NCBI GenBank assembly: GCA_947039275.1
Contig: CAMQYL010000001.1
Location: 36,889-100,888 of the forward strand
Direction: 5' to 3'
DNA length: 64,000 bases
From: an uncultured Bacteroidales bacterium
Lineage (GTDB): Bacteria; Bacteroidota; Bacteroidia; Bacteroidales; Muribaculaceae
Position numbers and translations under genes: made by a program. The notes under the pieces were generated by a model. It was not told where the DNA came from. It worked only from the letters and a program-made list of their open reading frames with translations, and ran no database searches. Every line of letters starts with the position of its first letter. Positions within the stretch are counted from its first letter, which is position 1. Below, piece by piece: positions 20,273 to 49,508 of this stretch.

Positions 20273-20674
20273 TGTAGGATATGCCTAATGCTGTTGAAAA
20301 AGACAATGATACAGACAGAAAGATACGTCGGAGACGTATCCGCCGTGAGTAACCCCATGCACGGAGCGTCAGCGAACGTACATGGGGCTTCACGCTATAC
20401 TCTTAGGATCAACCTCGGAGAGGTTGGGGCATATTGCCGACATTGTGCAGACACAACCATATCATACATTAAATCAATGGTTTACACACATAAGCAGGTG
20501 TGCCACAACCTCTCCGAGGTTGATCTGACAGGAGCTTTTCGTACCCCATGTACGTTCGCTGACGCTCCGTGCATGGGGTTATGCATAGCTGGCACGTCTC
20601 CGACGTGCCTCTTCCATTGGATCAATCACATTGCACATACTCTAATTTCCACAGCATTTAGGTGCAGTCCTACA
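20273..20674. repeat. large nested inverted-repeat element (MITE/BIME-like), flanked by TGTAGGA...TCCTACA
   Basis: The core arms at 20322-20425 and 20508-20609 share three inverted modules: ACGTCGGAGACGT, AACCCCATGCACGGAGCGTCAGCGAACGTACATGGGG and GATCAACCTCGGAGAGGTTG. The 152-aa ORF across it is judged spurious. Confidence 0.7.
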
Positions 20675-21301: not shown

Positions 21302-21349
21302 ATGCGAGTGTTAATCAGGCTGACCCTGATAAACACTCGCATCTTTTTT
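21302..21349 (+). terminator. rho-independent terminator after ferritin
   Basis: ATGCGAGTGTT-loop-AACACTCGCAT followed by CTTTTTT. Confidence 0.7.
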
Positions 21350-21462
21350 AACCGTTTTTATACCCTTTAAACACTCCCTTTGGCAAATTTCTTATAATTT
21401 TGCCGTTGGCAGCGAGGATGCTGCTTTTACTTATATCCATTCTTCTTGCATTAGGAAAAGCT

Positions 21463-23742
21463 ATGAAACTTTCAACAAGTCTGTGCATCTACATTCTGTG
21501 CATATGCGTCTGCATATTCGCAGGCATCAGCATAGTGCTTGAGAAGTATGCCTCGACACGAGAGCAAGAGCAGATCCACCGTCTGACCGAACTGTTGCAG
21601 GGACAGATGATACGCAGTGTAGAAGATGACCTTCATGGTGTAGCTCAGAATACTGAACGCACAGTGCGTGAATTGGCAGCCATGCCTGTGTCAGTCAACG
21701 AAACCAATGCCGCCAAACTGATCGGCATAATGGTGGAGAGCAATCCGCTCATCAAGGGCGGAAGCATAGCCTATGTCCCTGAAAAAGCTCCCGAAAGTGA
21801 CGGAGAGTGGATGATCTATGTGCAACGCTCCCCGTCGGGGCTAACAACGCAACAATTAGGAGGCTCCGATTACAACTATACAACCCAACAATGGTTCACT
21901 GCCCCTCTCCGCACAGGAAAGGCTACATGGAGCACACCCTATATGGACACAGGCGCAGGCGACTGCCTAATGACCACCTACAGCGTGCCTGTCACGGATT
22001 CCCACGGACACATCTATGCAGTCGTCACCGCCGATGTCGCCCTATCATATCTTGAAACCGAGGCTGACCAATTACGGCCGTATAAGGCAAGCCGCTCGTT
22101 GCTGCTATCTGCTGACGGCTCGCCTCTTACGGCATCTGTCCCCTCTGACAAGCAGACCATAGAACAGCTATCAGACATCACTGAACAACTTGCTTCGCAC
22201 AACCATGCCGACGGAGAAATAACTGCTGACGGAGAGAAACTGATTGCATGCTGTTCGCGCATCGCCGGACCTGACATCATAATCGCCACGCTGACACCAT
22301 ATAAGTCAGCACTGACTGTAATGAAGCAGATAAAACTCCCCATCCTCCTTATCGTAGGGTGCGGATTCATCTTGCTGCTCATAGGTCTACGTCTGATAAT
22401 CCCTTATGTCACCCGACCGCTCAACAGGCTGAGCAATGCAGCCATCAGCATAGGTAACGGAGATTTTACCACTCCCATTCCTCCGTCTGGTCCATATGCC
22501 GATATCAGACATCTTCACGATGCCATGGCTTATATGACCAATGCCATCCAGCAACACATCACGACCATAGCGCAAAATGCCCGCAACATGCAGCGCATAG
22601 AAAGCGAACTCACAATAGCCCGCAGCATCCAGCAAGGCATGCAGCCCCGACCGCTGCCTGCCAACGGCATAATCTTCAATGGCACACAGGTCTCGGTCGC
22701 TTCTCTGCTCCAACCGGCACGTGAGGTAAGCGGAGACATGTATGACTATGTATATGCCGACGGCAGCCTGTATTTCATCATAGCTGATGTGAGCGACAAA
22801 GGAGTGCCAGCATCATTAGTGATGGCTGCGGTGCATACCCTGTTCCGTTTCACCGCCGAACGACATCAGACTCCACAGGATATACTTACCTGCATCAATC
22901 GACATATATGCGAAAGCAATCCCAAAAACATGTTTGTAACCCTTATAACAGGAGTTATAGACATCCAAAAGGGACTGTTGACCCTTGCCAACGGCGGACA
23001 TAACCCTCCGATCATATCTGATGGCAATGGCTGCCGGTATCTGGCGCTCCCCCCCGGATTGCCGGCTGGAGTAATGGATTATGTGGATTATACACAGACC
23101 TCCATCCCATTTGCCCCGGGGTCGATGATATTTTTGTACACTGACGGTTTGACTGAAGCAGAGAACAGCGACGGCATCCCATTTGGTGAAGACAAACTGC
23201 TCTCCTTTATAAAGGGCTTGCACACGTCTAAACCTGATAATGTCATCGCAAGTGTCAATGACTCAGTAACCGACTACAGTATCATGCCGCTATCTGACGA
23301 CATCACCATGATGTGCATCAGTACTACCCCCTGTATTTCTCTGTCATATGACATCAATGAGATAACACGGCTTGCTGACTTCATCGACAGGACGGCATGC
23401 ACATATGGGTGGAATGCAGAACTGACGCAGAGGGTCAATCTCATACTCGAAGAAGCTGTCAGCAATATCATCAACCACTCAGTGCCGACACACGACAAAG
23501 CCGACATAACAGTCGCTCTGACTGATCTCTGTGGCGACATCCAGATAGACATCACCGATTGCAGCCCACCGTTCAACCCTCTGGAATCGGCACCTGTAAT
23601 AGACACGAACCTGCCAGCCGAGCAACGACCTGTGGGCGGATTAGGACTCTTCCTTATAAGCCGCCTCGTGGCATCGGCAGAATATGAATACCACGACAAC
23701 AAAAATCATCTTAGCTTACACCTAAAAACATCACAGCAATGA
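21463..23742 (+). CDS. membrane sensor: Cache-like domain + HAMP + PP2C (SpoIIE-type) phosphatase fused to a C-terminal RsbW/SpoIIAB-like HATPase domain
   Basis: TM, then a Cache-like segment (..WFTAPLRTGKATWSTPYMDTGAGDCLMTTYSVPV..), a second TM, HAMP, PP2C motifs (ELTIARSIQQGM, SGDMYDY, IADVSDKGVPASL, NGGHNPP, LYTDGLTEAEN), then an HATPase N-box EEAVSNIINH and G-box GGLGLFLISRL. The start is the ATG at 21463, or the TTG at 21400. Confidence 0.8.
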   Translation: MKLSTSLCIYILCICVCIFAGISIVLEKYASTREQEQIHRLTELLQGQMIRSVEDDLHGVAQNTERTVRELAAMPVSVNETNAAKLIGIMVESNPLIKGGSIAYVPEKAPESDGEWMIYVQRSPSGLTTQQLGGSDYNYTTQQWFTAPLRTGKATWSTPYMDTGAGDCLMTTYSVPVTDSHGHIYAVVTADVALSYLETEADQLRPYKASRSLLLSADGSPLTASVPSDKQTIEQLSDITEQLASHNHADGEITADGEKLIACCSRIAGPDIIIATLTPYKSALTVMKQIKLPILLIVGCGFILLLIGLRLIIPYVTRPLNRLSNAAISIGNGDFTTPIPPSGPYADIRHLHDAMAYMTNAIQQHITTIAQNARNMQRIESELTIARSIQQGMQPRPLPANGIIFNGTQVSVASLLQPAREVSGDMYDYVYADGSLYFIIADVSDKGVPASLVMAAVHTLFRFTAERHQTPQDILTCINRHICESNPKNMFVTLITGVIDIQKGLLTLANGGHNPPIISDGNGCRYLALPPGLPAGVMDYVDYTQTSIPFAPGSMIFLYTDGLTEAENSDGIPFGEDKLLSFIKGLHTSKPDNVIASVNDSVTDYSIMPLSDDITMMCISTTPCISLSYDINEITRLADFIDRTACTYGWNAELTQRVNLILEEAVSNIINHSVPTHDKADITVALTDLCGDIQIDITDCSPPFNPLESAPVIDTNLPAEQRPVGGLGLFLISRLVASAEYEYHDNKNHLSLHLKTSQQ

Positions 23743-24044
23743 CAACAACCATCAACCAGCATGACGGAATCACAAATATAGCCATCAACGGACGACTCGA
23801 TTCGGTAACCGCACCTCAGTTTGACAGCGAGGTAGCCCACATATGCTCTACTGATAGCCGTGGGGACATTATCATAGACTGCGCAGGGATGGAATATATC
23901 AGCAGTGCCGGACTTCGCTCTTTCATCACCTTGCTTAAAAGTTCAAAAGCCGCCGGACGCTCACTGGAACTCCAAAACCTCTCTGCCTCGATACGTGCGA
24001 TATTCGACATGACTGGATTCACTTCAATATTCAACATCCGATAA
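23739..24044 (+). CDS. STAS-domain anti-sigma-factor antagonist (SpoIIAA/RsbV-like)
   Basis: 101 aa: ...INGRLDSVTAPQF...IIIDCAGMEYISSAGLRSFITLLK..., with the conserved Ser in ISSAGL at nt 23901-23906. The ATGA start/stop overlap with the upstream gene is at 23739-23742. Confidence 0.85.
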   Translation: MTTTINQHDGITNIAINGRLDSVTAPQFDSEVAHICSTDSRGDIIIDCAGMEYISSAGLRSFITLLKSSKAAGRSLELQNLSASIRAIFDMTGFTSIFNIR

Positions 24045-24052
24045 CATCCATT

Positions 24053-27000
24053 ATGACCGACAACATGACTCCCATGCCTGTGCTCACACAGTCGCAGCTC
24101 GGCATCTATATAGAAAGCCTGCGCCACGAAGGCACTCCCATATATCACACTCCTCACCTCGCGCGCATGCATGGAGTGGCAGATGCACAGCGTCTCGCCG
24201 ATGCAGTGCGCAAGGTCATAGCCGCCTACCCGAGCATGTCGGCAAGGATAGTGACCGACAGCGATGGCAACCCTACCCTGTCGGATGCCTCCGCTTCCCA
24301 CCCCCTTGAAGTCGTTCTCGTCGAAATGACCGAGGAGCAGTTGATGACAGATAAGGATTCGTTGGTAAAACCGTTTGGTTTAGAAGTCGGTGAACTGGCT
24401 CATGTATCAGTCATCCGGACCGAGCGCGGTGTCTATCTGTTCACCGATTTCCATCACACCATATTTGATGGACACTCACATAAATTGCTCCTTAAGGAAA
24501 TTGACAAGGCATACAGCGGCAGCCCCGTCACTCCAGAAGCGTTGACCATCTATGATATAGCCCGAGAAGAAGCCGATGCGAGAACATCAGCGGACTATGC
24601 TTCGGCACATGACAGCTACAAGAAGATGCTTGATGGCGCTGACACGGAGCTGGAACTACCCTCCTATGCCAATGCCGCCACTGAGGCTTACGACGAAGTG
24701 ACCATCTCGCTTGACATAGACAGCGAGGTTTACAAGACCTATTGCCATGCCCACAGTATGCCCCAGAGTGTACCTGCCACGGCAGCCATGGGTATAGTGC
24801 TTCAGGCATTTTCGCGCAAGGAAGATGTCACTTTCGCCACAATATACCATGGACGCAAAGGCGACCGCTATGACCGAAGCTTCGGCATGATGGTCAAAAC
24901 TCTGCCAGTCAGAGTAAGCATCAATCAGTCCACAACCATAGGCTCACTGCTTGATGCCACGAAGGTCAATCTGAAAACGGCGCGTGAAAACGACATATAC
25001 TCGTTTGCCGATGCCGCCTCTGAGTTCGGAGTCAGCTCAGATTTCCTGTTTGCTTTCCAAGGAGAGTTTCTCAACATGCCCCAGGTCAATGGTGGCGATG
25101 TGGAAGAAATACCTGTGAAGAAGCTATCAACAGGGTCAAAAATCACCGCAAACCTGTTAATGGAGGGGGGCAAGATGAAAATGGTGATGGAATACCGCAG
25201 CGATCTGTATTCACCTGCATTCATCACATCTATCGCGTCCACATTTGCAACGGTGCTGTCGGAGATTATGTCATCGGATACCGGTATTAATGTATTGGAA
25301 CTGCCACTGCTCACTCCGACGGAAATGAGCAGTGTCATCACGCTTGGAGAGGGAGCAACGTCTACAGCCGATCCTCAGGCAACCATACCTATGCTGTTTA
25401 AAGAAGCTGCCAGGTTACACGGCGACAACACCGCCATCGTGTACAATGGACGCCAGATGACTTACCGCGAACTCGACCGCGCAACCGATGCTCTCGCTGT
25501 CATGCTGCATGACCGATACGGAGTGACTACCGAGACCACGGTAGGTGTGCTGATTGAACGCTCAGAACTCATGGCTATATACCCGTTGGCTATAATGAAA
25601 GCGGGAGGGGCGTATATGCCTCTTGACCCACATTTTCCACAGGATCGCCTGATGTTCATGGTAGAAGATGCCGGGGTATCGCTGATACTTGCCGATGACG
25701 GTCTGGCAGATGTTACGATGCCTCAATTTGACGGCACTGTCATTTCAGCTTCAGTTATGGAGTCATTAGCCGATGCCGACCGAGAGATATGCGAAGCGCA
25801 ACCTGGAGATTCCATGGTCGTCCTCTATACTTCCGGCTCTACCGGCAAACCCAAAGGCGTCACCCTTGTGCAACACAATATAGTGAATTTCTGTGCCGCC
25901 TACACATCCATGACACAGCTCTCAGCAAGTGACCGTGTGGGCGCGTATGCCGCATTCGGGTTCGATGCCCACATGATGGATCTCTATCCTGCCCTGCTGT
26001 GCGGAGCCACGGTGCATATCTTTGACTCGGAGATGCGCCTTGACCTCACAGCAATGCACGAGTATATAGAGCGCGAGCAGATCACGGTTATGTTCATGAC
26101 CACACAGATTGCATGGCAGATGGCAACGCTGTTTGACTTCACATCGCTGCGAGTGCTCTCGGCTGGCGGTGAGAAACTGCCTCCTATCGGTCTGCTGCCC
26201 TACACATTCTACAATGTCTACGGACCCACCGAGTGCTCCGTACTGACCACTGCATACCCTGCCAGCGGTGGTACCGACGGCACAATCATCGGCAGACCGC
26301 TCATGGGCTATGAACTGCTTATCGTCGACCGCAATCTTCGCCCCGTACCACAGGGTGTGTCAGGCGAGCTGATTATCCTCGGAGACGGAGTAGGACGCGG
26401 CTACCTCAACCGCCCCGAACTCAATGCCGAGAAATTCATTACCATCAGCGGCAAAAAGGCATATCGCACCGGTGACCAGGCAAGATATATGACGGACGGC
26501 AATGTGGAATTTTTAGGCCGCATGGACGGACTTGTCAAGCTCCGTGGCTTGCGCATAGAACTTGGCGAAATCGAAGCGGTAGCTACTGCACATCCCACAG
26601 TTAAGACTTTCGTGGCATCCGTCAAGGAATTCGGAGGCATGGAGAATCTAATCGGCTACTATACCGTCAAGGATGGGCAGAACCTGACCGCTGACACACT
26701 GCGCGAATTCATGTCGCAGTCGCTCACCGAATTCATGGTGCCACAAGTCATAATGCAGCTCGAAACTATGCCGCTGACCCCTAACGGCAAGGTCGACCGC
26801 CGTGCGCTCCCTGTCCCTGAGACAGCTGTTGCTGAAATCATAGAGCCGGCATCGCCAATGGAGCAGACGATATACGACATCACGGCAGAGATACTCAAGC
26901 ACACAGATTTCGGTGTCACTACCAACCTGCTGTCGGTGGGTCTGACCTCTCTGATGGCTATGCGTCTCGTGGCATCGGTAATCAGGGATACCGGACTGAA

Positions 27001-30000
27001 ACTGACAGCCAAGACCGTCATGTCAACTCCCACGGTGCGCGAAATCGCCGCCTCCTTAGAGTCGGCGACAAGAACAGCCGACGATACCACCGCGCACAAA
27101 CGCCGCCGCTACTATCCGCTGACTGAAAACCAGCGCGGAGTCTACATTGACTGGGAAATGAACCGTGACGCGCTGCAATACAATATACCTCAGGCATACA
27201 AATTCGGACAGGGCACAGATGCCGAAGCTCTCCGCGAGGCAATCTACAAGGTGCTTGCAGCCCATCCGTCATTGAAAACCCGCATGGTCATGCGCGGTGG
27301 CGATGTGATGCAGGAACGCCGCGACGACGAACCCATTGAGATTACCATAACCGACCTTGACGAAGCTCCAACCCAGGAATTCTTACAGAGCCGCATCCGT
27401 CCGTTTGATCTGCTTAATGACTGCCTATTCCGCTGCGAGATATATCGCCACGGCGATGACGTGTACATGCTCCGCGACACCCATCATATCATCTACGACG
27501 GAGTGTCGGCGATGCTTTTCCATCAGGATATGGTCAAAGCCTATGACGGTGCCGCGCTTGAAGCTGAGACATACACCGCGCTTGACCACGCGCTTGACGA
27601 GAAAGAGCTGCTTGAGAGCGATGAAGCCGACAAAGCCGCGGAGTGGCTTGACCGACTCGTTGACGGCTCAGAACCGACCTCATATCCGCGCAGCGCCCAG
27701 CCCGACAACGACATATCTGGTGGCATGGGACGAATCAGACTCTCTCTACCGTCTGCCGACATCAAAGCTTTCTGCTCCAAAGGCGGCGTGACTGTCAGCA
27801 ACTACATGCTTAGTGCGTTTGTACAGCTCCTTCACCGACTCACTCGCGAACAGACCGTGCAGATCGTCACCGTCAACAACGGCAGAAGTGATATGCGCCT
27901 CATTGGCGACATGGGCATGTTTGTCAAGACCCTCCCTGTGGTGTCACGTTGCTCAGCTCCGACCGCAACACCGCTTGACTTCGCCCGCGACATGCAGACA
28001 CAGTTCTTGACATCGCAAGACTACGACTTCTATCCATTCACCGCATTGGTGGAACAGAAAGGTGTGCGCCCCGACATAATGTATGTGTATGAAGGTGGCA
28101 TCAATCTCGCAGGCGATGCCGATGACCGACTCAAAGCCGAGAAAATTCCGCTCTCGCTTGACACAGCCAAAGTACCGCTGACATTGCTCGTGTTTGAGCC
28201 GACCGATGATGAATTTGAGCTGGCACTTGAATACGACACATCCATGTATGCCAAAGCTGACATGGAGGTTTTTGTGGAAATGATGCGCACCCTCAGTCTC
28301 ACTCTCACACAGGCACCGACCATAGCCGACGGTCTGATGGTCAATGCAGCGCAAGAGAAGCAACTCCGCACCATGCGCCATGGTGATACAGGCGAAGTGC
28401 TCTACACCTCATTCCACGGCGCAATGGAAAGCCGTGCCGATGCCACTCCCGATGCCCCGGCACTCGTGGCATGCGACAAGCGGATGTCCTACCGCGACTT
28501 TGACGAGGAGTGTAACCGCATCGCCAATGCTCTGATTAAGCGCGGTGTGCGCCGTGGTGACCGCATCGTCATTCTGCTCCCGCGCCGCTCATACCTCATC
28601 ACTGCCATCTATGGCACGATGAAGGCAGGTGCTACGTATATCCCCTGCGACCCCGAATACCCGGCAGACCGCATACGCCTCATAACCGAGGACAGCGATG
28701 CGAAATTTGTCATCACGACAGCCGACAAGGTTTCTCTTTATCCCGGAAAAGCCGTTGACATTGACGAACTGCTGACCGAAACCGACACAAAACGTCCGAA
28801 TGTCGCAGTAGCACCTGAAGATATCGCCTATATGATATATACTTCCGGCTCTACCGGCAGACCAAAAGGTGTGATGATACCGCAGAGAGCCATCACCAAC
28901 TACCTCTATGGATACTATAAGATGTTCTACAAAGAGCGTCCTGACATAAAGACGCAGATGCTCCTTGTGACCATCTCGTTTGATGCCTCGCTGCTCAATC
29001 TCGGAGGTTCGCTGACATCTGGACACTGCCTGGTGCTTGCCAATGAAGACGAGTGCAAGGATGTGGTGCTGTTGTCAAAACTGATGCTCGACAATGGTGT
29101 CGACGCTACCGATATCACTCCGAGCCGTCTGGATGCGATGCTTGACCTGCCAGAATTCGGACGAGCCATAGCCCGCTGCAAGCATATCAACATCGGTGGT
29201 GAGGGTTTCCAGAACACCCTTATAGCCAAACTATGTTCGGCAGGTTTCCGTGGACGTGCTATAAACGAATACGGACCGACGGAAACCACCGTAGGCTGCA
29301 ACCAAGCCGAAGTAACTCCGTTTGAACCCATAATTGCCGGGCGACCGTTCTATAATGCAAGCGAACGAATCGTCGATGCCTGGGGGTCGGAACTGCCTGT
29401 CGGAGCCGTCGGCGAACTCTATATATTCGGTCGCGGCGTGGGTCTTGGATACAACAACCTGCCCGAAAAGACCGCACAGTCGTTCGTCGATTTCAATGGA
29501 GAGAGAGGCTATCGCACCGGCGACCTTGCCCGATGGACTCCCGAAGGGAATGTGGTCATACTCGGACGCATAGACCATCAGGTCAAGCTACGAGGTCTCC
29601 GTATAGAGCTTGGCGAAATCGAGAGCGTGGCACAGCAGTTTGATGGCATCAAAAATGCCGCTGCAGATGTGCGCGAGGTCAACAAGATTCAGCATCTCTG
29701 CCTCTACTACACTGCCACCTCGCCAATTGACAAAGCAAAATTCCGCGAGCATCTTGCATCCTCGCTTACAGAATATATGGTGCCGGACGCATACACCGAG
29801 GTGGAGGTAATGCCGCTGACACCCAACGGCAAAATCAACCGCAAAGCTCTTCCCGAACCAGAGATTGCACCCATGACACCATATGTTGAGCCAGAGGGCG
29901 AGTTAGAGAAAACGATTGCAAAGGCATTCGGCACCATCCTACGCAATGACCGCATCGGAGCCAATGACGACTTCTTCGCCATCGGTGGTACATCAATCAG

Positions 30001-31330
30001 TGCCATTAAAGTCGTGGCTGCCCTCGCTTCATCTGGTTACAGCATCACCTACAAGAACGTGTTCACCGCCCGCACTCCCCGTGCTTTGGCTGCCATGATA
30101 GAGGGCAGACCGATTGAAGAACCCATCGCAACCCCTGTAACGGCAGAAATACATGTGTCAGAATTTGCAAACGTGCTTGAACGCAACACCCTTGACGCTT
30201 TTCTCAACGGCAAGGAACAGGCTCTCGGCGATGTACTGCTGACCGGAGCCACAGGTTTCATGGGCATACATATGCTCCATGAACTGTTGACCACAACCGA
30301 CTCCCGGGTGTACTGCCTCCTGCGCCGCAAGGGAGACCTGTCAGCCGAAAGCCGTCTGCGCACGTTGCTGTTCTACTACTTTGACAATACCTTTGAGGAC
30401 GATTTCGCATCGGGACGGCTCACTGTAATCGAAGGTGACGTGACAGACCCGATTGACAGCCAACTTGCCGACAGACTGCCGGTGCAGACTGTCATCAACT
30501 GCGCCGCCAATGTCAAGCATTTCTCCGCCGGCAATGACATCGAGCAGGTCAATGTGGAGAGCGTGCGTAACCTGATCAGCTTCTGCCTTGATAAATCCGC
30601 ACGATTAGTGCATGTCTCCACCATCAGCATCGCCGGCGAGAGCGTCAACGGCTATCCCGACCCGTCATTGCTGCTGACCGAGCGCATGATGGACTTCGGA
30701 CAGAGCCTGTCAAACCAGTACGTCCATTCCAAATATGAAGCTGAACGGCTCATACTGACAGCCATCCGCGACCAGGGACTCAATGCGAAAATAATGCGTG
30801 TCGGCAATCTCTCGGCTCGTGGCACTGACGGCGAATTTCAGATCAATTTCCGCAGCAATGCCTTCATGGGCAAACTGCGAGCCTACGTGGCTCTCGGTTG
30901 CGCTCCCTATGCAGTGATGGATGCGCCATGCGAGTTCTCACCCATCGATGAAGTTTGCCATGCCATACTGCTTCTGAGCCGTACACCTGTGGAGATGTCA
31001 GTGTTCCAGCCCTGCAACAACCACCGTCTGCCGTTGGGAGATGTGTTGCATATCCTCAGCGAGGCGGGGCTGCCGGTCGCTCCTGTGGAGATGCCGCAAT
31101 TCAACGAGCGCGAACGCGAAGCCATGGATGACCCGCGTAAAGTCGATGCGCTGCAACCGCTCATGGCATACGATTCGGGAGCAGGCTCACGCACTGCCTT
31201 CATACGCTACGATTCGAGCTTCACTAACCAGATACTCTATCGTCTCGGATTCCGCTGGAATTACACTTCACGCGAATATGTCAGCCAGTTTATCCGCGCC
31301 ATCGCCTCACTCAACTACTTCGAACTATGA
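24053..31330 (+). CDS. bimodular non-ribosomal peptide synthetase, C-A-T-C-A-T-R (terminal thioester reductase)
   Basis: 2425 aa. C motifs HHTIFDG (nt 24452-24472) and HHIIYDG (about 27481). A-domain cores LYTSGSTGKPKGV (about 25821) and IYTSGSTGRPKGV (about 28836), YRTGD, KLRGLRIELGEIE and PNGK(V/I)(D/N)R(R/K)AL, each present twice. Carrier Ser sites in VGLTSLMAM and FAIGGTSISA. Reductase motifs LTGATGFMG (about 30238) and YVHSKYEAE. Confidence 0.95.
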   Translation: MTDNMTPMPVLTQSQLGIYIESLRHEGTPIYHTPHLARMHGVADAQRLADAVRKVIAAYPSMSARIVTDSDGNPTLSDASASHPLEVVLVEMTEEQLMTDKDSLVKPFGLEVGELAHVSVIRTERGVYLFTDFHHTIFDGHSHKLLLKEIDKAYSGSPVTPEALTIYDIAREEADARTSADYASAHDSYKKMLDGADTELELPSYANAATEAYDEVTISLDIDSEVYKTYCHAHSMPQSVPATAAMGIVLQAFSRKEDVTFATIYHGRKGDRYDRSFGMMVKTLPVRVSINQSTTIGSLLDATKVNLKTARENDIYSFADAASEFGVSSDFLFAFQGEFLNMPQVNGGDVEEIPVKKLSTGSKITANLLMEGGKMKMVMEYRSDLYSPAFITSIASTFATVLSEIMSSDTGINVLELPLLTPTEMSSVITLGEGATSTADPQATIPMLFKEAARLHGDNTAIVYNGRQMTYRELDRATDALAVMLHDRYGVTTETTVGVLIERSELMAIYPLAIMKAGGAYMPLDPHFPQDRLMFMVEDAGVSLILADDGLADVTMPQFDGTVISASVMESLADADREICEAQPGDSMVVLYTSGSTGKPKGVTLVQHNIVNFCAAYTSMTQLSASDRVGAYAAFGFDAHMMDLYPALLCGATVHIFDSEMRLDLTAMHEYIEREQITVMFMTTQIAWQMATLFDFTSLRVLSAGGEKLPPIGLLPYTFYNVYGPTECSVLTTAYPASGGTDGTIIGRPLMGYELLIVDRNLRPVPQGVSGELIILGDGVGRGYLNRPELNAEKFITISGKKAYRTGDQARYMTDGNVEFLGRMDGLVKLRGLRIELGEIEAVATAHPTVKTFVASVKEFGGMENLIGYYTVKDGQNLTADTLREFMSQSLTEFMVPQVIMQLETMPLTPNGKVDRRALPVPETAVAEIIEPASPMEQTIYDITAEILKHTDFGVTTNLLSVGLTSLMAMRLVASVIRDTGLKLTAKTVMSTPTVREIAASLESATRTADDTTAHKRRRYYPLTENQRGVYIDWEMNRDALQYNIPQAYKFGQGTDAEALREAIYKVLAAHPSLKTRMVMRGGDVMQERRDDEPIEITITDLDEAPTQEFLQSRIRPFDLLNDCLFRCEIYRHGDDVYMLRDTHHIIYDGVSAMLFHQDMVKAYDGAALEAETYTALDHALDEKELLESDEADKAAEWLDRLVDGSEPTSYPRSAQPDNDISGGMGRIRLSLPSADIKAFCSKGGVTVSNYMLSAFVQLLHRLTREQTVQIVTVNNGRSDMRLIGDMGMFVKTLPVVSRCSAPTATPLDFARDMQTQFLTSQDYDFYPFTALVEQKGVRPDIMYVYEGGINLAGDADDRLKAEKIPLSLDTAKVPLTLLVFEPTDDEFELALEYDTSMYAKADMEVFVEMMRTLSLTLTQAPTIADGLMVNAAQEKQLRTMRHGDTGEVLYTSFHGAMESRADATPDAPALVACDKRMSYRDFDEECNRIANALIKRGVRRGDRIVILLPRRSYLITAIYGTMKAGATYIPCDPEYPADRIRLITEDSDAKFVITTADKVSLYPGKAVDIDELLTETDTKRPNVAVAPEDIAYMIYTSGSTGRPKGVMIPQRAITNYLYGYYKMFYKERPDIKTQMLLVTISFDASLLNLGGSLTSGHCLVLANEDECKDVVLLSKLMLDNGVDATDITPSRLDAMLDLPEFGRAIARCKHINIGGEGFQNTLIAKLCSAGFRGRAINEYGPTETTVGCNQAEVTPFEPIIAGRPFYNASERIVDAWGSELPVGAVGELYIFGRGVGLGYNNLPEKTAQSFVDFNGERGYRTGDLARWTPEGNVVILGRIDHQVKLRGLRIELGEIESVAQQFDGIKNAAADVREVNKIQHLCLYYTATSPIDKAKFREHLASSLTEYMVPDAYTEVEVMPLTPNGKINRKALPEPEIAPMTPYVEPEGELEKTIAKAFGTILRNDRIGANDDFFAIGGTSISAIKVVAALASSGYSITYKNVFTARTPRALAAMIEGRPIEEPIATPVTAEIHVSEFANVLERNTLDAFLNGKEQALGDVLLTGATGFMGIHMLHELLTTTDSRVYCLLRRKGDLSAESRLRTLLFYYFDNTFEDDFASGRLTVIEGDVTDPIDSQLADRLPVQTVINCAANVKHFSAGNDIEQVNVESVRNLISFCLDKSARLVHVSTISIAGESVNGYPDPSLLLTERMMDFGQSLSNQYVHSKYEAERLILTAIRDQGLNAKIMRVGNLSARGTDGEFQINFRSNAFMGKLRAYVALGCAPYAVMDAPCEFSPIDEVCHAILLLSRTPVEMSVFQPCNNHRLPLGDVLHILSEAGLPVAPVEMPQFNEREREAMDDPRKVDALQPLMAYDSGAGSRTAFIRYDSSFTNQILYRLGFRWNYTSREYVSQFIRAIASLNYFEL

Positions 31331-33066
31331 CAGCATCCTCACGCACACCATATCTCGTAGGCAAAGCTTTCCGCAGCTTTCTTCTCGCTTCGGTACTGAC
31401 TGCCGCAGCCTCGCAGGTGGGAGCGTTGATTGACGGACTGATGCTCAGCCGCTTCATCAACGAGGAGGCGATGAGTGCCATCAACATCACCTCCCCTGTC
31501 ACGCAGGCTCTCTTTGCCCTGTGCATCCTCATAGGTGTAGGAGGGTCGATGCTCGCTGGCATAGCCATCGGCAACCACCGTAAGGATGAAGCCTCAGGCA
31601 TCTTCTCTGTGGTCATAACCACGGCTGTCACGCTCGGCATAGTGCTCGGCATAGCCGGGATGGTGTTCCTCACGCCCCTGCTGCACCTGCTCTGCCCCGA
31701 TGCTTCGCTTCAAGGGTACACCTCGCAATATCTTGTCGTGATCCTCCCTGCCTCGGCTATATATATGCTGATGGTGGTGGCGCAGATGTTTGTGACCCTT
31801 GACGGCGAACCGCGACGTGTCACTGCCGCGGTGACTACCTGCATGGTGGTCAAACTGACGCTCGACTACATCTTCATAGTGTGGTGTGGTTGGGCGATGA
31901 CAGGTGCGGCTATCGCCACAGTCATCAGCTACTTAGGCTCTCTGTGTGTCCTGTTTCCACATTTCCTAAAAAAAGAGGCTCTACGATACACCTTGCCCCG
32001 TACCATACGCCAGTTGGGCCGCATTGCCTCCATGGGTCTGCCTTTCGGCATCGCCACAGTTCTGATAGCCGTGCAGATGCTCGGCAACAACCTTGTGGCA
32101 ATCAACTACCTCGGAGCCGCCGGCATAGTCACGCTGTCGATATGCATGTATCTGCTGCGATTTTCAATGATTATCCTCACGGGGACGCTTGAATCGTTTC
32201 AGCCCGTCGCTGCCATACTAAAAGGCTCCGGTGATAACCATGGCGTAGCACTTGTGCTCGGCAGAGCCTACCGGTTTCTGGCAGTCAGCCTCTCGGTGCT
32301 TGCCCTCATACTGATAATCTTCCCGGGTTGGATTGCCGACCTGTTTGGCATCGATGATGCTGCCTCGATGGCGATGCTCCATGTGGCACTCCCGGCATAT
32401 GCAGTCAATATCATACTCCAGTGTGCCGTATATCTGCTGATACCTGTCTATCAGATATACAGCCATAAAAACATGGCTCTGATTATCTCGTTCGGACAAC
32501 CGTTGATGCCCATGGTGTGCTACTGGCTGCTGTCGGCTGCCGTCGGCGCAGGATATGCCTGGATCAATCCGTGGTGGGGCTTCGCCATCGGGCAGCTCGT
32601 TGTGGTGTTGATACTCGCTCCATTTGCACTTACACGCAAAGGCGACCACAAGCCGTTTGTACTCATCCCGACCGACAATCCCGACGAACTCTTTGACATA
32701 TCAGTGACACCTGCCATCGACCGTATGGAAGATGCCATAGTAGAAGCGGACGAATGGATGCGCACACAGAGCTTACCAGAGCAGCTGCGTCTGCGCGTTG
32801 GACTGGCATGTGAGGAAAGCATCAAGAATATCATACAGCATGCCCTCGGCAAAAAGGCACAGCACTCAGCGATAGACATGCGCATAGCTCTGTCAGCCGA
32901 CAAAGTGACGGCTGTTATCCGCGATGAAGGCACCCCTTTCAACCCCGTGGAACAAGATCCTGGCACCGGGCTCGGCTTGATGCTCGTCCGCAAAACCTGC
33001 GACGACCAAAAGTACGAGTACCTCTTCCACCAAAACATCCTCACCATCGAGTGGCAGCGCAAATAA
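31327..33066 (+). CDS. MATE/MOP-family efflux transporter fused to a C-terminal RsbW-like HATPase domain
   Basis: 579 aa. About 440 aa are polytopic and MATE-like (..LMLSRFINEEAMSAINITSPV..). The last roughly 130 aa (..LACEESIKNIIQHAL..VIRDEGTPFNPVE..GTGLGLMLVRK..KYEYL..) are paralogous to the C-terminus of the 21463-23742 product. The ATGA overlap with the NRPS stop is at 31327-31330. Confidence 0.75.
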   Translation: MTASSRTPYLVGKAFRSFLLASVLTAAASQVGALIDGLMLSRFINEEAMSAINITSPVTQALFALCILIGVGGSMLAGIAIGNHRKDEASGIFSVVITTAVTLGIVLGIAGMVFLTPLLHLLCPDASLQGYTSQYLVVILPASAIYMLMVVAQMFVTLDGEPRRVTAAVTTCMVVKLTLDYIFIVWCGWAMTGAAIATVISYLGSLCVLFPHFLKKEALRYTLPRTIRQLGRIASMGLPFGIATVLIAVQMLGNNLVAINYLGAAGIVTLSICMYLLRFSMIILTGTLESFQPVAAILKGSGDNHGVALVLGRAYRFLAVSLSVLALILIIFPGWIADLFGIDDAASMAMLHVALPAYAVNIILQCAVYLLIPVYQIYSHKNMALIISFGQPLMPMVCYWLLSAAVGAGYAWINPWWGFAIGQLVVVLILAPFALTRKGDHKPFVLIPTDNPDELFDISVTPAIDRMEDAIVEADEWMRTQSLPEQLRLRVGLACEESIKNIIQHALGKKAQHSAIDMRIALSADKVTAVIRDEGTPFNPVEQDPGTGLGLMLVRKTCDDQKYEYLFHQNILTIEWQRK

Positions 33067-33085
33067 TCCATCAGATACTAACCCT

Positions 33086-33159
33086 TGTAGGGACATGCCG
33101 TGGCATGTCCGCTGCCAACACACGCTTGATGGGCGGACATGCCACGGCATGTCCCTACA
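33086..33159. repeat. REPIN-like inverted doublet (type 1)
   Basis: TGTAGGGACATGCCGTGGCATGTCCGC ... GCGGACATGCCACGGCATGTCCCTACA, between the MATE gene and the PPTase gene. Confidence 0.85.
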
Positions 33160-33178
33160 ATCATTCGCCATATCAATT

Positions 33179-33682
33179 ATGACGGACTACCTGATTGAGG
33201 AGATATCTGAGCCGCTGAGCCCTGGGCAACTCAGCGTCAGGGCGCGCGAGGTGCTGGGACGTCTGCTTGCCGACAGGTACGGCATCAGCCAGCTGCCTGT
33301 TATCGCCACATATCCGTCAGGCAAACCGTATTTCCCTACGCATCCGCATATCCATTTCAGTCTGTCACACTGCTCTCGGGCGGTCATTGCAGTGGTCTCG
33401 GATTCGGAGGTAGGATGTGACATTGAAGATATGCAGGCCGCAGCCGATATCACAAGCGAACTGCTGCAAGTGGCGTTTTCACTCGCAGAACAAGCTCAGA
33501 TACTCCAGTCAGCCAATCCGGCTGTGGAGATGACGCGCCTTTGGACCCGCAAAGAAGCCAATATGAAACGCACCGGGAGCATCCCCGACAACCCTGTCAA
33601 CTGGCTGTCGGAGATGCCCGGTGTGTCTACGTCTACCTGCTGCGAGGCAGCGAAAGGCTACATATATTCAATCAGTCATTGA
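33179..33682 (+). CDS. 4'-phosphopantetheinyl transferase (Sfp type)
   Basis: 167 aa from the internal ATG, with GKPYF...HFSLSHC and GCDIE motifs and ...WTRKEA.... The upstream part of the ORF-track entry is a translation of the REP palindrome. Confidence 0.85.
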   Translation: MTDYLIEEISEPLSPGQLSVRAREVLGRLLADRYGISQLPVIATYPSGKPYFPTHPHIHFSLSHCSRAVIAVVSDSEVGCDIEDMQAAADITSELLQVAFSLAEQAQILQSANPAVEMTRLWTRKEANMKRTGSIPDNPVNWLSEMPGVSTSTCCEAAKGYIYSISH

Positions 33683-34049
33683 GATGCATGACCAGCTCCT
33701 CTACCGAGATGCCGAGCATCGACATCTCGTGGCGGAGACGTGGCAGCGTGTCAGCGAAAAACTCTTCACGCAGTTGCTCACGGATTATATCCTTTGCCTC
33801 CTGAGCGACAAAGCAGCCCAGACCGCGCTTCTGATATAGGATGCCGAGAGCCTGCATGTCGTCATAGCTCTTCAATACCGTGCGAGTGTTGACCGCCATG
33901 GCAACCGACAGTTCCTTGACCGACGGCACACGTCCGTCAGTCTGCCAATCGCCTGAAAGGATGCGGCTGTAGCAGTAATCGGTAATCTGCCGATAAATCG
34001 GTTTTGATGTGTTGAAATCCACTATATCTGACGGTTTTTGATTTTCCAA
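33672..34049 (-). CDS. GntR family (YtrA-like) transcriptional regulator
   Basis: 125 aa: ..KPIYRQITDYCYSRILSGDWQTDGRVPSVKELSVAMAVNTRTVLKSYDDMQALGILYQKRGLGCFV.., a winged-HTH GntR signature with a short effector region. Confidence 0.85.
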   Translation of the reverse strand: MENQKPSDIVDFNTSKPIYRQITDYCYSRILSGDWQTDGRVPSVKELSVAMAVNTRTVLKSYDDMQALGILYQKRGLGCFVAQEAKDIIREQLREEFFADTLPRLRHEMSMLGISVEELVMHLND

Positions 34050-34849
34050 GCTGTTAATATAATCAACACTACAGCGGTCACCATCCAGCCAATCGATGAG
34101 CCAACCACAATCGGCATCATCATATCATGGACTACAGTATCAGCAATCGCTTCTGCCTCCGCGGGATCCACATCCTCATCCGCAAACTGCTCTGTCATCT
34201 TGTAAAAAATCACAAATACAGTATAGGAAATGAGGCCAATGTAGACAATAGCAGCGATTATAACATCCCAGACGATGGTTTTCAGGACGATATTATACCT
34301 GAACAAGATCACGAAAAACAGGGTGAAAAGAGCCGGCACAACGCCATTCATGTAGATATTAAGCCTTGTAGATACCAATGTTTCAAGGATGGGCGGCATA
34401 TCCTGCTCCTCAAACACCTTCATGGACATCATCATAAACTTGATATTGACCTCGCCAGGCAACAGCTCCATACTCAGCACCGGAAGAAGCATAGAGAGAA
34501 GAGGTATCACTATTACAGTATAGCCTATCACGAATATGCTCTTGGCCACCCATGAGATTGGCAGTGTGATGTCCAGAGCCCTCGAATTATAGCGTGCGAA
34601 CGACAGAGGGGCAAATATCATCATGAGGCTGACGATAAGCGCAAGTGTTAGATACAGCAATTTGAGATTATAGTGCGATGTCACTGCCAACAGCACTGCT
34701 ATGACAAACGATGCAATCGCATACCATATCACCTGCCACTTCAAGCGAGGCCAGTAATAACGGCACGCATACGCAATCTGGTTCCAAAGCCACGGCACAG
34801 GCACAGTCATAGCGGCAACAGAGTTATTGTCATTCATTTTCGGAATCAT
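34022..34849 (-). CDS. polytopic membrane protein, putative permease partner of the adjacent ABC ATPase
   Basis: 275 aa with about 6 TM helices. It overlaps both flanking genes of a YtrA-style operon. No recognisable motif. Confidence 0.55.
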   Translation of the reverse strand: MIPKMNDNNSVAAMTVPVPWLWNQIAYACRYYWPRLKWQVIWYAIASFVIAVLLAVTSHYNLKLLYLTLALIVSLMMIFAPLSFARYNSRALDITLPISWVAKSIFVIGYTVIVIPLLSMLLPVLSMELLPGEVNIKFMMMSMKVFEEQDMPPILETLVSTRLNIYMNGVVPALFTLFFVILFRYNIVLKTIVWDVIIAAIVYIGLISYTVFVIFYKMTEQFADEDVDPAEAEAIADTVVHDMMMPIVVGSSIGWMVTAVVLIILTAWKIKNRQI

Positions 34850-46277: not shown

Positions 46278-46412
46278 CCCACTCCCAACAACAAAAATAT
46301 ACAAACATACCACCACATCAAACCTGAATATAGATTATAAACTGCTATAAATCACCAATATAGACCCAAAGATAATAAGAAATCGGTCTTAACAGCTTGA
46401 TTATCAGATAAA

Positions 46413-46594
46413 TACAATCTATATTTTCAAAAAGACTAAAAATAAAATTTTGCACTTTCATAACTCTCTAATTTTAAGCACATTACAAAGCGCAAAAGCC
46501 AAATGATTTTTCTCTCAATATCAGCAAGAAACGGAAAATATGCTCTAATTTTGCAGTTTGACATTAATTAATTTTCATCACATTAAATAATCCG
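46413..46594 (+). promoter_or_regulatory. repeated promoter/leader cassette, copy 2 (upstream of ABC exporter)
   Basis: TACAATCTATATTTTCAAAAAGACTAAAAATAAAATTTT, AAAGCCAAATGATTTTTC (46495-46512), -7 box TAATTTTG (46546-46553), and leader ...TTTTCATCACATTAAATAATCCGATG. Confidence 0.55.
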
Positions 46595-48820: not shown

Positions 48821-48824
48821 CACC

Positions 48825-49025: not shown

Positions 49026-49112
49026 TCCCCAGAGGCGGAAATCATATAGACGACGCGATACAATGGTGTGCATTTAAGATATATCGTATCAAATCGGATG
49101 AATAAGCATGTC

Positions 49113-49353: not shown

Positions 49354-49508
49354 TATGGTGTTTATCTATTATTTTGCATTGTTTTGACATGCACACGCAT
49401 CAAATTACCAAATCGTTAATTGAACAGCATTGTGACGCACGAGGTTACGGTTTCTATATTTTCAGCGCATACATTTGCTGAATCATTGTGATTGACGGGG
49501 CTTTTGTG

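What the first reader, a model, noticed from the sequence alone, without database searches (positions are those of the whole stretch)
21463..33066. A partner-switching module (Cache-HAMP-PP2C-HATPase sensor + STAS) is translationally coupled to the NRPS, with no sigma factor in sight
The sensor stop overlaps the STAS start (ATGA at 23739-23742). The NRPS starts 8 nt after the STAS stop. The NRPS stop overlaps the exporter start (ATGA at 31327-31330). The four genes therefore form one tight operon. SpoIIE/RsbU-type phosphatase, RsbW-type kinase and STAS antagonist normally control an alternative sigma factor. Here phosphatase and kinase-like domains are fused in one membrane protein with an extracytoplasmic Cache ligand-binding domain, the STAS protein keeps the phosphorylatable Ser (ISSAGL), and no sigma factor gene is adjacent. 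The output may therefore be post-translational control of the biosynthesis or export machinery itself, which is an unusual way to regulate a natural-product pathway.
Basis: partly seen in the sequence, partly recalled or inferred. Interest (0 to 1): 0.75.

Follow-up and report, generated by a model that had tools for sequence, protein, structure and literature searches.

The report
Signalling switch built into metabolite exporter
A gut Bacteroidales bacterium has one operon where a membrane sensor-phosphatase, a small phosphorylatable switch protein and a kinase domain fused to the export pump surround a peptide-aldehyde synthetase with no sigma factor, which suggests an outside signal controls making or releasing the compound at the protein level.

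Summary
Window 21463-33682 is one tight five-gene operon: Cache/PDC-HAMP-PP2C-HATPase_c_2 sensor, STAS, a C-A-T-C-A-T-R NRPS, a DinF-type MATE exporter with a C-terminal SpoIIAB/RsbW-like HATPase_c_2 domain, and a PPTase. The key feature is the exporter-kinase fusion. It is present in 61 species-level Bacteroidales genomes and at least 46 protein clusters at 50% identity, and 57 of the 61 sit beside this NRPS despite shuffled gene order. The STAS phospho-serine, the PP2C catalytic aspartates and the exporter domain's ATP-binding motifs are all conserved. The sensor's own kinase domain is degenerating and is absent in some lineages. No alternative sigma factor lies in the 64-kb window or in about 150 related loci. 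Only an rpoD-like gene lies 3.9 kb upstream, and its position is not conserved. An NRPS-anchored survey found STAS in 16 of 22 complete sister clusters, some with a plain MATE or none. So the module belongs to the NRPS pathway, and its target (exporter, NRPS or both) remains inferred. I favour exporter gating by STAS docking (confidence about 0.4). I found no paper describing this. It is a new variant of partner switching. Interest 0.7.

The parts
21302..21348 (+). Intrinsic terminator after the ferritin gene. It marks the upstream boundary of the operon.
   Evidence: 17-bp interrupted stem followed by a U-run. MFE -25.2 kcal/mol, z -7.5, 0 of 200 shuffles fold as well.
21395..21402 (+). TAATTTTG, which matches the Bacteroides -7 promoter motif TAnnTTTG. 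It is a candidate promoter element for the primary sigma.
   Evidence: Read directly from the sequence. The motif is recalled from my own knowledge of Bacteroides promoters and was not tested.
21463..23742 (+). Sensor gene: TM - Cache/PDC - TM - HAMP - PP2C phosphatase - HATPase_c_2. An alternative TTG start at 21400 is not excluded.
   Evidence: Pfam; translation; PDB sequence matches to RssB and Rv1364c.
21565..22197 (+). Extracytoplasmic Cache/PDC ligand-binding domain (residues 35-245).
   Evidence: MCP-like_PDC_1 at 88.5 bits; dCache_1 at 25 bits, below its cut-off. Flanked by two hydrophobic segments.
22408..22494 (+). HAMP domain (residues 316-344).
   Evidence: Pfam HAMP at 29 bits against a cut-off of 25.
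22759..23325 (+). PP2C (SpoIIE-type) phosphatase domain (residues 433-621).
   Evidence: SpoIIE 1.7e-46. D425, D442, D561, D612 and D613 are invariant in 38/38 homologues.
23359..23718 (+). Sensor HATPase_c_2 domain (residues 633-752). It has a canonical-length ATP lid, but its G1 box is DCSPPF, with the glycine lost.
   Evidence: Pfam 8e-18; motif comparison.
23739..24044 (+). Single-domain STAS protein (anti-sigma-antagonist type). Ser56 is the codon at 23904-23906.
   Evidence: Pfam STAS 3.5e-18. TIGR00377 anti-sigma factor antagonist at 65.7 bits, above its cut-off. S56, G58 and R60 are invariant 44/44. PDB matches to TM1442, RsbV and SpoIIAA.
24053..31330 (+). Bimodular NRPS, C-A-T-C-A-T-R, with a terminal thioester reductase.
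   Evidence: Pfam.
31327..32634 (+). MATE exporter membrane domain (residues 1-436, DinF/PfMATE type). The invariant Asp36 is the codon at 31432-31434.
   Evidence: Pfam MatE. PDB profile search hits DinF-BH at 6.5e-32. D36 aligns with DinF-BH D40. AF2 pLDDT 87 with Foldseek TM 0.83-0.88 to MATE structures.
32635..32685 (+). Conserved linker (residues 437-453) with the PFxLIP motif.
   Evidence: P443, L446 and P448 are at least 90% conserved. pLDDT of the 10-residue blocks covering 431-460 is 76-86.
32686..33063 (+). SpoIIAB/RsbW-like HATPase_c_2 domain fused to the exporter (residues 454-579). Its ATP lid is shortened by about 12 residues.
   Evidence: Pfam 3.5e-14. E496, E497, N501, D533, F538, N539 and G550 are invariant in 93 sequences. 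The AF2 domain model has pLDDT 88. Its best PDB matches are SpoIIAB, RsbW and UsfX, TM 0.65-0.76 normalised to the query.
33095..33682 (+). 4'-phosphopantetheinyl transferase, the last gene of the operon.
   Evidence: Pfam ACPS. NCBIfam AcpT- and AusB-like. Co-conserved in most loci.

Best explanation
Genes 21463-33682 form one operon of a Muribaculaceae bacterium. It encodes a small natural-product pathway with its own built-in partner-switching module. The pathway consists of a bimodular NRPS ending in a reductase, a PPTase and a DinF-type MATE exporter. The product is most likely an N-acyl dipeptide aldehyde.

Working model:
1. The extracytoplasmic Cache/PDC domain of the sensor binds an unknown ligand. 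Through the HAMP domain it sets the activity of the cytoplasmic PP2C phosphatase. The architecture is shown; the signalling is inferred.
2. The phosphatase removes phosphate from Ser56 of the STAS protein. The SpoIIAB/RsbW-like domain fused to the C-terminus of the exporter puts the phosphate back using ATP. This is inferred from conserved catalytic motifs and fold. The sensor's own HATPase domain is an accessory STAS-binding or dimerisation domain that is decaying in this lineage.
3. Unphosphorylated STAS docks on the exporter's RsbW-like domain. This displaces the domain from a default contact, proposed to be the exporter's own cytoplasmic face, and so switches export of the reactive aldehyde. 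This step is inferred.

In this model the exporter takes the place that the sigma factor holds in the classical system, and control is post-translational.
For: Architecture:
- Domain architecture and junctions are confirmed.

The exporter-kinase fusion is a conserved family:
- 157 clusters at 90% identity matched, and the 120 best, which are the ones listed, all carry PF13581; 119 of them also carry PF01554.
- 61 species-level genomes of Muribaculaceae, Prevotella, Bacteroidaceae, Alistipes and other Bacteroidales carry it.
- At least 46 full-length representatives at 50% identity were found.
- 57 of the 61 loci sit beside the C-A-T-C-A-T-R NRPS, in at least four different gene orders.

In a distant group the exporter carries the only kinase:
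- In L039, L043, L044, L051, L052, L058 and L068 the sensor is Cache-PP2C without any HATPase, so the exporter carries the only kinase domain found in the locus.
- L063 has the same kind of sensor plus one stand-alone HATPase gene directly after the exporter gene.

Catalytic residues are conserved:
- STAS S56, 44/44.
- PP2C aspartates, 38/38.
- Exporter-domain N box, G1 Asp (64 of 65; the 65th sequence is a truncated fragment) and G2 box.
- By contrast, the sensor domain has lost the G1 Asp in L017, L019, L020 and L018, and the G1 Gly in the window.

Fold and function of the parts:
- The exporter domain's fold matches SpoIIAB, RsbW and UsfX, the anti-sigma kinases that bind STAS proteins.
- The linker is conserved and confidently modelled; whole-protein pTM is 0.82.
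- The membrane domain keeps the DinF-BH D40 equivalent, so it looks like a working transporter.
- Tandem MATE-H-H proteins exist.

No sigma factor:
- No alternative sigma or anti-sigma lies in the 64-kb window.
- No sigma-70-family ORF is detectable with the rpoD-like query in any of about 150 loci, apart from rpoD-like genes in four of them at varying positions.
Against: - The NRPS-anchored survey shows that sensor plus STAS also accompany sister NRPS clusters whose MATE has no HATPase domain (L071, L095, L118, L121, L148, L152), or that have no adjacent MATE at all (L082, L088, L097, L108, L142). The universal neighbour of the module is therefore the NRPS, not the exporter.
- The exporter's HATPase has an ATP lid about 12 residues shorter than the sensor type, so its kinase activity is uncertain.
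- Distance-matrix correlation did not single out the exporter domain as the co-evolving partner of STAS.
- No inter-domain error estimate was available for the AF2 model, and no complex could be modelled.
- An unlinked target cannot be excluded from loci alone.
Confidence: 0.4

Rival explanations
1. STAS is the output carrier and acts on the NRPS. Unphosphorylated STAS binds the synthetase and switches it on or off. The HATPase domain, wherever it sits (exporter, sensor or stand-alone), is only the STAS kinase. Fusing it to the exporter could tie STAS phosphorylation to the state of the exporter, matching synthesis to export capacity.
For: - The NRPS is the only gene that is always next to the module, including loci without a MATE-HATPase fusion or without an adjacent MATE.
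- STAS lies directly upstream of the NRPS in many arrangements, 8 nt in the window.
- The HATPase domain appears on the sensor, on the exporter, on both, or alone (L109, L147, L149), as expected if its only job is to phosphorylate STAS.
- Precedent for STAS controlling an enzyme: the Anabaena HenR/All4160 preprint (10.64898/2026.04.08.717354), and SiaC-SiaD (my own knowledge).
Against: - No domain of the NRPS is known to bind STAS.
- This model does not explain the conserved, structured linker and the long-term maintenance of the exporter fusion in at least 61 species.
- It does not explain the MATE-H-H tandems.
Confidence: 0.27
2. This is classical anti-sigma control with an unlinked target. 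The HATPase_c_2 domains sequester a sigma or other transcription factor encoded elsewhere, possibly the primary sigma, and STAS releases it. The operon would then be regulated transcriptionally.
For: - The fold and motifs are those of anti-sigma kinases.
- An rpoD-like gene lies 3.9 kb upstream in the window. One also lies within about 10 kb in L004, L074 and L112.
- Chlamydial RsbW has been proposed to target the primary sigma (cited in the STAS review PMC8256260).
Against: - No sigma-70-family ORF other than rpoD-like genes was detected in about 150 loci.
- No ECF sigma appears in the Pfam gene lists of L001-L008 and L070-L072.
- The rpoD position is not conserved. It is absent from the views of the other loci.
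- The module is strictly tied to one biosynthetic cluster through gene-order shuffling, which is unusual for a regulator whose DNA-binding partner is elsewhere.
Confidence: 0.13
3. The two HATPase domains heterodimerise, as SpoIIAB and RsbW homodimerise. This ties sensor and exporter into one membrane complex, and the exporter acts as a second input (a substrate-load sensor) rather than as the output.
For: - Tandem MATE-H-H proteins exist, and L063 has a MATE-H followed by a stand-alone H.
- A degenerate sensor domain is paired with an intact exporter domain in the window's lineage.
Against: - Many loci have only one HATPase domain.
- No dimer modelling was possible.
- This model leaves the output undefined.
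Confidence: 0.1

Closest known systems
RsbU/RsbP-RsbV-RsbW and SpoIIE-SpoIIAA-SpoIIAB partner-switching systems (Bacillus)
   Same: - PP2C phosphatase, single-domain STAS with the phospho-serine loop, and a GHKL serine kinase of the HATPase_c_2 type.
- Fold and motifs match.
   Different: - No sigma factor is present.
- The kinase domain is covalently fused to a MATE exporter and has a shortened ATP lid.
- The phosphatase is a transmembrane Cache-HAMP sensor.
- The module is embedded in an NRPS operon.
Partner-switching modules with non-sigma outputs: Vibrio fischeri SypE-SypA, Bordetella BtrU/V/W, Pseudomonas SiaABCD and HsbR-HsbA, Anabaena HenR-All4160
   Same: - STAS phosphorylation controls a biosynthetic or secretion process rather than a sigma factor (PMC8256260, PMC4517449, preprint 10.64898/2026.04.08.717354).
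- The sensor's best NCBIfam hit is SiaA.
- In All4160 a module component is fused to the effector enzyme.
   Different: - Here the kinase, not STAS, is fused to the presumed effector.
- The effector is a secondary transporter.
- The pathway is a nonribosomal peptide.
Fused phosphatase-kinase proteins: Mycobacterium tuberculosis Rv1364c and Shewanella CrsR
   Same: - PP2C is followed by HATPase_c_2 in one polypeptide.
- Rv1364c is among the best PDB sequence matches for both domains.
   Different: - The input is a periplasmic Cache-HAMP domain rather than a PAS or receiver domain.
- STAS is a separate protein.
- A second kinase domain sits on the exporter.
STAS domains attached to transporters: SLC26/SulP C-terminal STAS; MlaB in MlaFEDB
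   Same: A STAS-fold protein or domain works at the cytoplasmic face of a transporter (PMC8256260; MlaB is 7ch8).
   Different: - In those systems STAS itself is the transporter-bound part, and no kinase/phosphatase pair is involved.
- Here the transporter carries the STAS-binding kinase domain.
MATE exporters of biosynthetic clusters (ClbM of colibactin, MbnM of methanobactin)
   Same: - A MATE exporter is encoded in the cluster.
- The predicted fold matches ClbM (4z3n).
- There is a weak NCBIfam hit to MbnM.
   Different: Those exporters have no regulatory domain. No solved MATE structure carries a HATPase domain.
Gut-bacterial dipeptide-aldehyde NRPS family (Guo et al. 2017 Cell; Schneider and Balskus 2018; cited in PMC8518294)
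   Same: - Small NRPS ending in a thioester reductase, in gut anaerobes.
- An N-terminal C domain suggests N-acylation.
   Different: - The described clusters are mainly clostridial.
- The papers I could read report no partner-switching module with them. The original paper was not available to me.

Membership tests
Partner-switching system (Rsb/SpoIIA type) | PP2C/SpoIIE-type serine phosphatase with metal-binding aspartates | tested here: met
   SpoIIE 1.7e-46 over the full model. D425, D442, D561, D612 and D613 are invariant 38/38.
Partner-switching system (Rsb/SpoIIA type) | Single-domain STAS protein with a phosphorylatable Ser in the S-x-G-L loop | tested here: met
   STAS 3.5e-18. TIGR00377 hit above its cut-off. 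S56 is 44/44. Matches RsbV, SpoIIAA and TM1442.
Partner-switching system (Rsb/SpoIIA type) | RsbW/SpoIIAB-type GHKL kinase domain with N, G1 and G2 boxes | tested here: met
   - Exporter domain: HATPase_c_2 3.5e-14, invariant EE..N, D..G..FNP and G.G motifs, and fold closest to SpoIIAB, RsbW and UsfX.
- Sensor domain: Pfam hit 8e-18, but the G1 glycine is lost.
- The ATP lid of the exporter domain is about 12 residues shorter than usual.
Partner-switching system (Rsb/SpoIIA type) | A cognate sigma factor (group 3, SigB/SigF type) encoded with the module | tested here: not met
   - Only an rpoD-like gene, 3.9 kb away on the other strand.
- None elsewhere in the window.
- No sigma-70-family ORF other than four rpoD-like genes in about 150 loci.
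Partner-switching system (Rsb/SpoIIA type) | Reversible phosphorylation of STAS and mutually exclusive binding of the kinase to STAS or to a target | not testable with these tools
   Needs biochemistry or complex modelling.
MATE transporters (DinF subfamily) | 12-helix MATE fold | tested here: met
   Profile search hits DinF-BH at 6.5e-32 and PfMATE. AF2 pLDDT 87 and Foldseek TM 0.83-0.88 normalised to the targets.
MATE transporters (DinF subfamily) | TM1 aspartate used for proton coupling and substrate binding (DinF-BH D40) | tested here: met
   D36 aligns with D40, and with the N of the D40N entry 5c6n. D36 is invariant in 93 sequences.
MATE transporters (DinF subfamily) | Exports the product of the neighbouring NRPS | not testable with these tools
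   Inferred from operon membership only.
Reductase-terminated dipeptide (aldehyde) NRPS of gut bacteria | C-A-T-C-A-T-R domain order with a terminal NAD_binding_4 reductase, plus a PPTase | tested here: met
   Pfam. AusB- and AcpT-like PPTase.
Reductase-terminated dipeptide (aldehyde) NRPS of gut bacteria | The product is a peptide aldehyde (or a derived pyrazinone) | not testable with these tools
   Adenylation-domain specificity and starter condensation-domain type were not analysed.
Rv1364c/CrsR-type fused phosphatase-kinase regulators | PP2C and HATPase_c_2 in one polypeptide | tested here: met
Rv1364c/CrsR-type fused phosphatase-kinase regulators | Cytoplasmic PAS or receiver input; STAS in the same chain (Rv1364c); sigma as target | tested here: not met
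   The input is a periplasmic Cache-HAMP domain, STAS is a separate gene, and there is no sigma.

The most novel reading that the evidence does not exclude
A secondary transporter is the direct output of a partner-switching system. The RsbW-like domain fused to the MATE pump acts as an autoinhibitory plug or clutch, and unphosphorylated STAS releases it. A Cache sensor reading a gut-lumen ligand would then gate, within seconds and without transcription, the release of a reactive protease-inhibiting peptide aldehyde. Sensor, STAS and pump would form one membrane signalling complex. This would be the first case of partner switching controlling a transporter, and a new logic for regulating natural-product secretion in the microbiome.
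Probability: 0.35. Interest if true: 0.85.

Novelty: new variant of a known kind. Interest (0 to 1): 0.7.

Why it matters
Partner switching is a textbook way of controlling alternative sigma factors. A few recent cases show it can control enzymes instead. Here the anti-sigma-type kinase is fused to an export pump inside a nonribosomal peptide operon, and the arrangement is conserved across many gut and rumen Bacteroidales.

If the model holds, three things follow:
- It extends partner switching to membrane transport.
- It gives a rare example of a biosynthetic cluster regulated at the protein level by an extracellular ligand sensor.
- It points to a signal, the Cache ligand, that tells abundant gut commensals (Muribaculaceae, Prevotella) when to release a probable host- or microbe-directed protease inhibitor.

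The model is directly testable. One carrier, Lepagella muris NM04_E33 (L018), is a cultured isolate.

Practically, silent clusters of this family might need the Cache ligand or a STAS S56A allele to yield product in heterologous expression.

Tried and rejected
- Mirror-tree test. Pairwise-distance correlations of STAS with the exporter HATPase, sensor HATPase, PP2C, Cache and MATE domains were all high (r 0.78-0.91). Partial correlations did not favour the exporter domain. The test is confounded by shared descent and is uninformative.
- Literature. No paper was found on a MATE-HATPase fusion, on partner switching in Bacteroides, or on this cluster family. The only trace is IMG's automatic name 'Na+-driven multidrug efflux pump/anti-sigma regulatory factor'. 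Guo et al. 2017 could not be read.
- rpoD linkage. An rpoD-like gene is near the cluster in the window, L074, L004 and L112. Its position and distance vary, and it is absent from the other views. I rejected it as a conserved partner.
- Sigma-70 promoter scan. The number found equals chance (14 against 12.5 expected), and the consensus does not apply to Bacteroidota.
- Rfam. Only tRNA-Met was found; no riboswitch or leader lies upstream of the operon.
- Complex modelling of STAS with either HATPase domain was not possible, because only single window or database proteins can be submitted.
- GntR gene downstream (33672-34049). I considered it as a cluster regulator and rejected it. It is convergent, belongs to an ABC operon, and is not conserved next to the cluster.

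Full report
**1. Observation**

ORF listing and direct reading confirm the coordinates.
- The sensor (21463-23742) ends in an ATGA that starts STAS (23739-24044).
- The NRPS (24053-31330) starts 8 nt after the STAS stop.
- The NRPS stop overlaps the exporter start in a second ATGA, at 31327-31330.
- A PPTase gene (33095-33682) follows 28 nt after the exporter, so the operon has five genes.
- Upstream, a strong terminator (21302-21348; -25.2 kcal/mol, z -7.5) closes the ferritin gene.

Pfam gives the following.
- Sensor: MCP-like_PDC_1 (dCache_1 is sub-threshold), HAMP, SpoIIE and HATPase_c_2.
- Next gene: a STAS domain.
- NRPS: C-A-T-C-A-T-R.
- Exporter: MatE plus a C-terminal HATPase_c_2.

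Two hydrophobic segments place the Cache domain outside the cytoplasm.

**2. Organism and surroundings**

The closest genome is 'Bacteroidales bacterium M7', a Muribaculaceae MAG. Identity there is 99% for the exporter and 90-91% for the sensor.

The rest of the 64-kb window holds housekeeping genes, outer-membrane receptors and a possible RiPP locus. There is no alternative sigma or anti-sigma factor. The only sigma gene is rpoD-like (16731-17591, minus strand). It is separated from the operon by an ABC transporter, tRNA-Met, ferritin and the terminator.

**3. The key feature is the exporter-kinase fusion**

- A protein search with the 579-aa exporter matched 157 clusters. The 120 best, which are the ones listed, all carry HATPase_c_2, and 119 of them also carry MatE.
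- A genome scan found the fusion in 61 species-level genomes. These include Muribaculaceae, Prevotella, Bacteroidaceae, Alloprevotella, Cryptobacteroides and Alistipes, and the cultured isolate Lepagella muris.
- An exhaustive HMMER search with the kinase domain alone found 984 relatives at E <= 1e-3. Among the best 150, 46 are full-length MATE-HATPase proteins, each representing a 50%-identity cluster. The rest are stand-alone domains of about 140 aa, fragments, or PP2C-HATPase proteins.
- Two proteins carry two HATPase domains after the MATE.
- The only public naming I found is an automatic IMG label.

**4. Properties of the parts**

Exporter membrane domain:
- It resembles DinF-BH and PfMATE by sequence.
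- It resembles them by predicted structure (pLDDT 87, pTM 0.82).
- Its invariant D36 aligns with the functional D40 of DinF-BH.

Linker:
- It carries a conserved PFxLIP motif and is confidently modelled.

Exporter C-terminal domain:
- The N box (E496, E497, N501), the G1 box (D533, G535, F538-N539-P540) and the G2 box (G548, G550) are invariant or nearly so.
- Modelled alone (pLDDT 88), it is closest to SpoIIAB, RsbW and UsfX.
- Its ATP lid is about 12 residues shorter than that of the sensor domain.

Sensor HATPase domain:
- It has a canonical lid.
- In the window it has lost the G1 glycine (DCSPPF). In L017, L019, L020 and L018 it has lost the G1 aspartate.

STAS and PP2C:
- STAS Ser56, at the S-x-G-L position that is phosphorylated in SpoIIAA and RsbV, is invariant in 44 sequences.
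- The PP2C metal-binding aspartates are invariant in 38 sequences.

**5. Synteny seen from the exporter side**

I built HMMs iteratively from the loci themselves. They show the NRPS next to the fusion in 57 of 61 genome loci. Three of the exceptions are truncated contigs. One, L040, is a real exception.

Gene order varies:
- sensor-STAS-NRPS-exporter-PPTase (the window);
- STAS-sensor-exporter-NRPS-PPTase;
- sensor-STAS-PPTase-NRPS-exporter;
- STAS-PPTase-NRPS-exporter, without a sensor.

In a distant group the sensor is Cache-PP2C without any HATPase. In seven of those loci the exporter carries the only kinase domain found. L063 has in addition one stand-alone HATPase gene next to the exporter.

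STAS was found in 38 of 61 loci. Nearly all the loci without it are cut at the 5' end of the NRPS.

**6. Synteny seen from the NRPS side**

I searched with the T-R end of the NRPS and scanned metagenome contigs. This gave 80 loci at 45-98% identity.

Among 22 loci with a complete bimodular NRPS and usable flanks:
- 16 have STAS;
- 15 have a PP2C sensor;
- 17 have some HATPase_c_2 domain;
- 12 have a MATE;
- 6 have the MATE-HATPase fusion.

Sister architectures include:
- sensor(PP2C-H)-STAS-(AlgE-like outer-membrane porin)-NRPS-plain MATE-PPTase;
- the same arrangement without an adjacent MATE;
- a stand-alone HATPase plus STAS;
- module-free NRPS loci.

No gene between STAS and the NRPS is a sigma factor. 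A phmmer search of all ORFs of about 150 loci with the rpoD-like protein found only four rpoD-like genes, at varying positions, and nothing else.

**7. Interpretation**

- Shown: all three catalytic components of a partner-switching system are present, conserved and dedicated to this NRPS cluster family. There is no co-located sigma factor.
- Shown: in the window's lineage the best-conserved kinase domain is part of the exporter.
- Inferred: the Cache ligand sets PP2C activity. STAS Ser56 cycles between phosphorylated and unphosphorylated forms. Unphosphorylated STAS docks on the exporter's RsbW-like domain.
- The step I commit to, at confidence about 0.4, is that this docking changes export. 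The exporter would then occupy the place of the sigma factor.
- The main rival (0.27) is that STAS acts on the NRPS and the kinase is merely anchored to, or informed by, the pump. The NRPS-side survey favours this rival, because the NRPS is the universal neighbour.
- An unlinked sigma or transcription factor (0.13) and a sensor-exporter heterodimer with the pump as a second input (0.1) remain possible.

**8. Comparison and novelty**

The system works like the Rsb and SpoIIA modules. It fails the 'cognate sigma' criterion, so it is best grouped with the non-sigma partner switches: SypE/SypA, BtrUVW, SiaABCD, HsbR/HsbA and Anabaena HenR/All4160.

The fused PP2C-HATPase sensor resembles Rv1364c and CrsR.

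What I did not find described is:
- an RsbW-type domain fused to a MATE exporter;
- a partner switch embedded in an NRPS operon;
- any partner switching in Bacteroides or its relatives.

No solved MATE structure carries such a domain. I rate it a new variant of a known kind, with interest 0.7.

**9. Limits**

- All functional statements rest on homology, conservation and synteny.
- HMM thresholds may miss divergent STAS genes or ECF sigmas.
- Locus views are limited to 10 kb on each side.
- The NRPS-anchored sample keeps only the 80 closest relatives.
- The product and the ligand are unknown.

Noticed in passing
window 16731-17591 (-): An rpoD-like sigma-70 gene of 286 aa, with regions 1.2, 2, 3 and 4, probably the primary sigma of this Bacteroidota genome. 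It lies 3.9 kb upstream of the operon. rpoD-like genes also lie within about 10 kb of the cluster in L004, L074 and L112, but at different positions.
   Followed up: yes
window 20325-20606: A nested inverted repeat between tRNA-Met and the ferritin gene. The outer arms are 63 nt (89% complementary) and the inner arms are 25 nt (96% complementary). There is no Rfam match and its nature is unknown; it could be a MITE-like or regulatory palindrome. A 152-aa ORF across it has no Pfam hit and is probably spurious.
   Followed up: partly
window 44097-64000: A possible RiPP or bacteriocin locus. It has a C39-peptidase ABC exporter (46595-48820) and a radical SAM enzyme (51830-53101). Several proteins have no Pfam hit. 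Five OMP_b-brl_3 / TonB-type outer-membrane proteins are also present.
   Followed up: no
window 33672-35681 (-): A small GntR-family regulator of 125 aa. Its gene end overlaps the PPTase stop by 11 nt, and the two genes converge. It lies in a minus-strand unit with an ABC ATPase and an unannotated 275-aa protein. It is not conserved next to the cluster in other loci.
   Followed up: partly
P0168, P0225; L063 9935-12202: MATE exporters carrying two HATPase_c_2 domains in tandem, or a MATE-HATPase followed by a stand-alone HATPase gene. This suggests that the kinase domains work in pairs at the pump.
   Followed up: partly
L074 9535-13475; L072 1483-6358; L061 9977-11335: Decayed versions of the cluster.
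- In L074, a close relative with the same rpoD flank, a Cache fragment abuts the reductase end of the NRPS. The phosphatase, STAS and most of the NRPS are deleted, while the exporter fusion and PPTase remain.
- L072 keeps the sensor and NRPS fragments only.
- The L061 exporter stops right after the LLIPKN linker and has lost its kinase domain.
   Followed up: partly
L148 2814-4160; L109 3790-5115; L071 240-1577: Many sister clusters carry an AlgE-like (Alginate_exp) outer-membrane beta-barrel gene between STAS and the NRPS, or near the cluster. It may be the outer-membrane exit for the product. The window's operon has no such gene.
   Followed up: partly
L046 5184-9994 (also L048, L051, L055): Distant Bacteroidaceae-type clusters insert three genes between the NRPS and the exporter fusion: an A-T-TE protein, a beta-lactamase-fold protein and a 420-aa protein without a Pfam hit. 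This implies a modified product.
   Followed up: no
window versus L009 (LUJR01000009.1): Identity to the closest genome is uneven along the operon: exporter 99%, NRPS 93-97%, STAS 95%, sensor 90-91%. The sensor may be evolving faster, or it may have been exchanged.
   Followed up: no
L059 4217-6403: A legumain-type C13 cysteine peptidase gene lies directly upstream of the exporter fusion and NRPS in one Bacteroidaceae locus that has no STAS in view. This is notable next to a probable cysteine-protease-inhibitor pathway.
   Followed up: no
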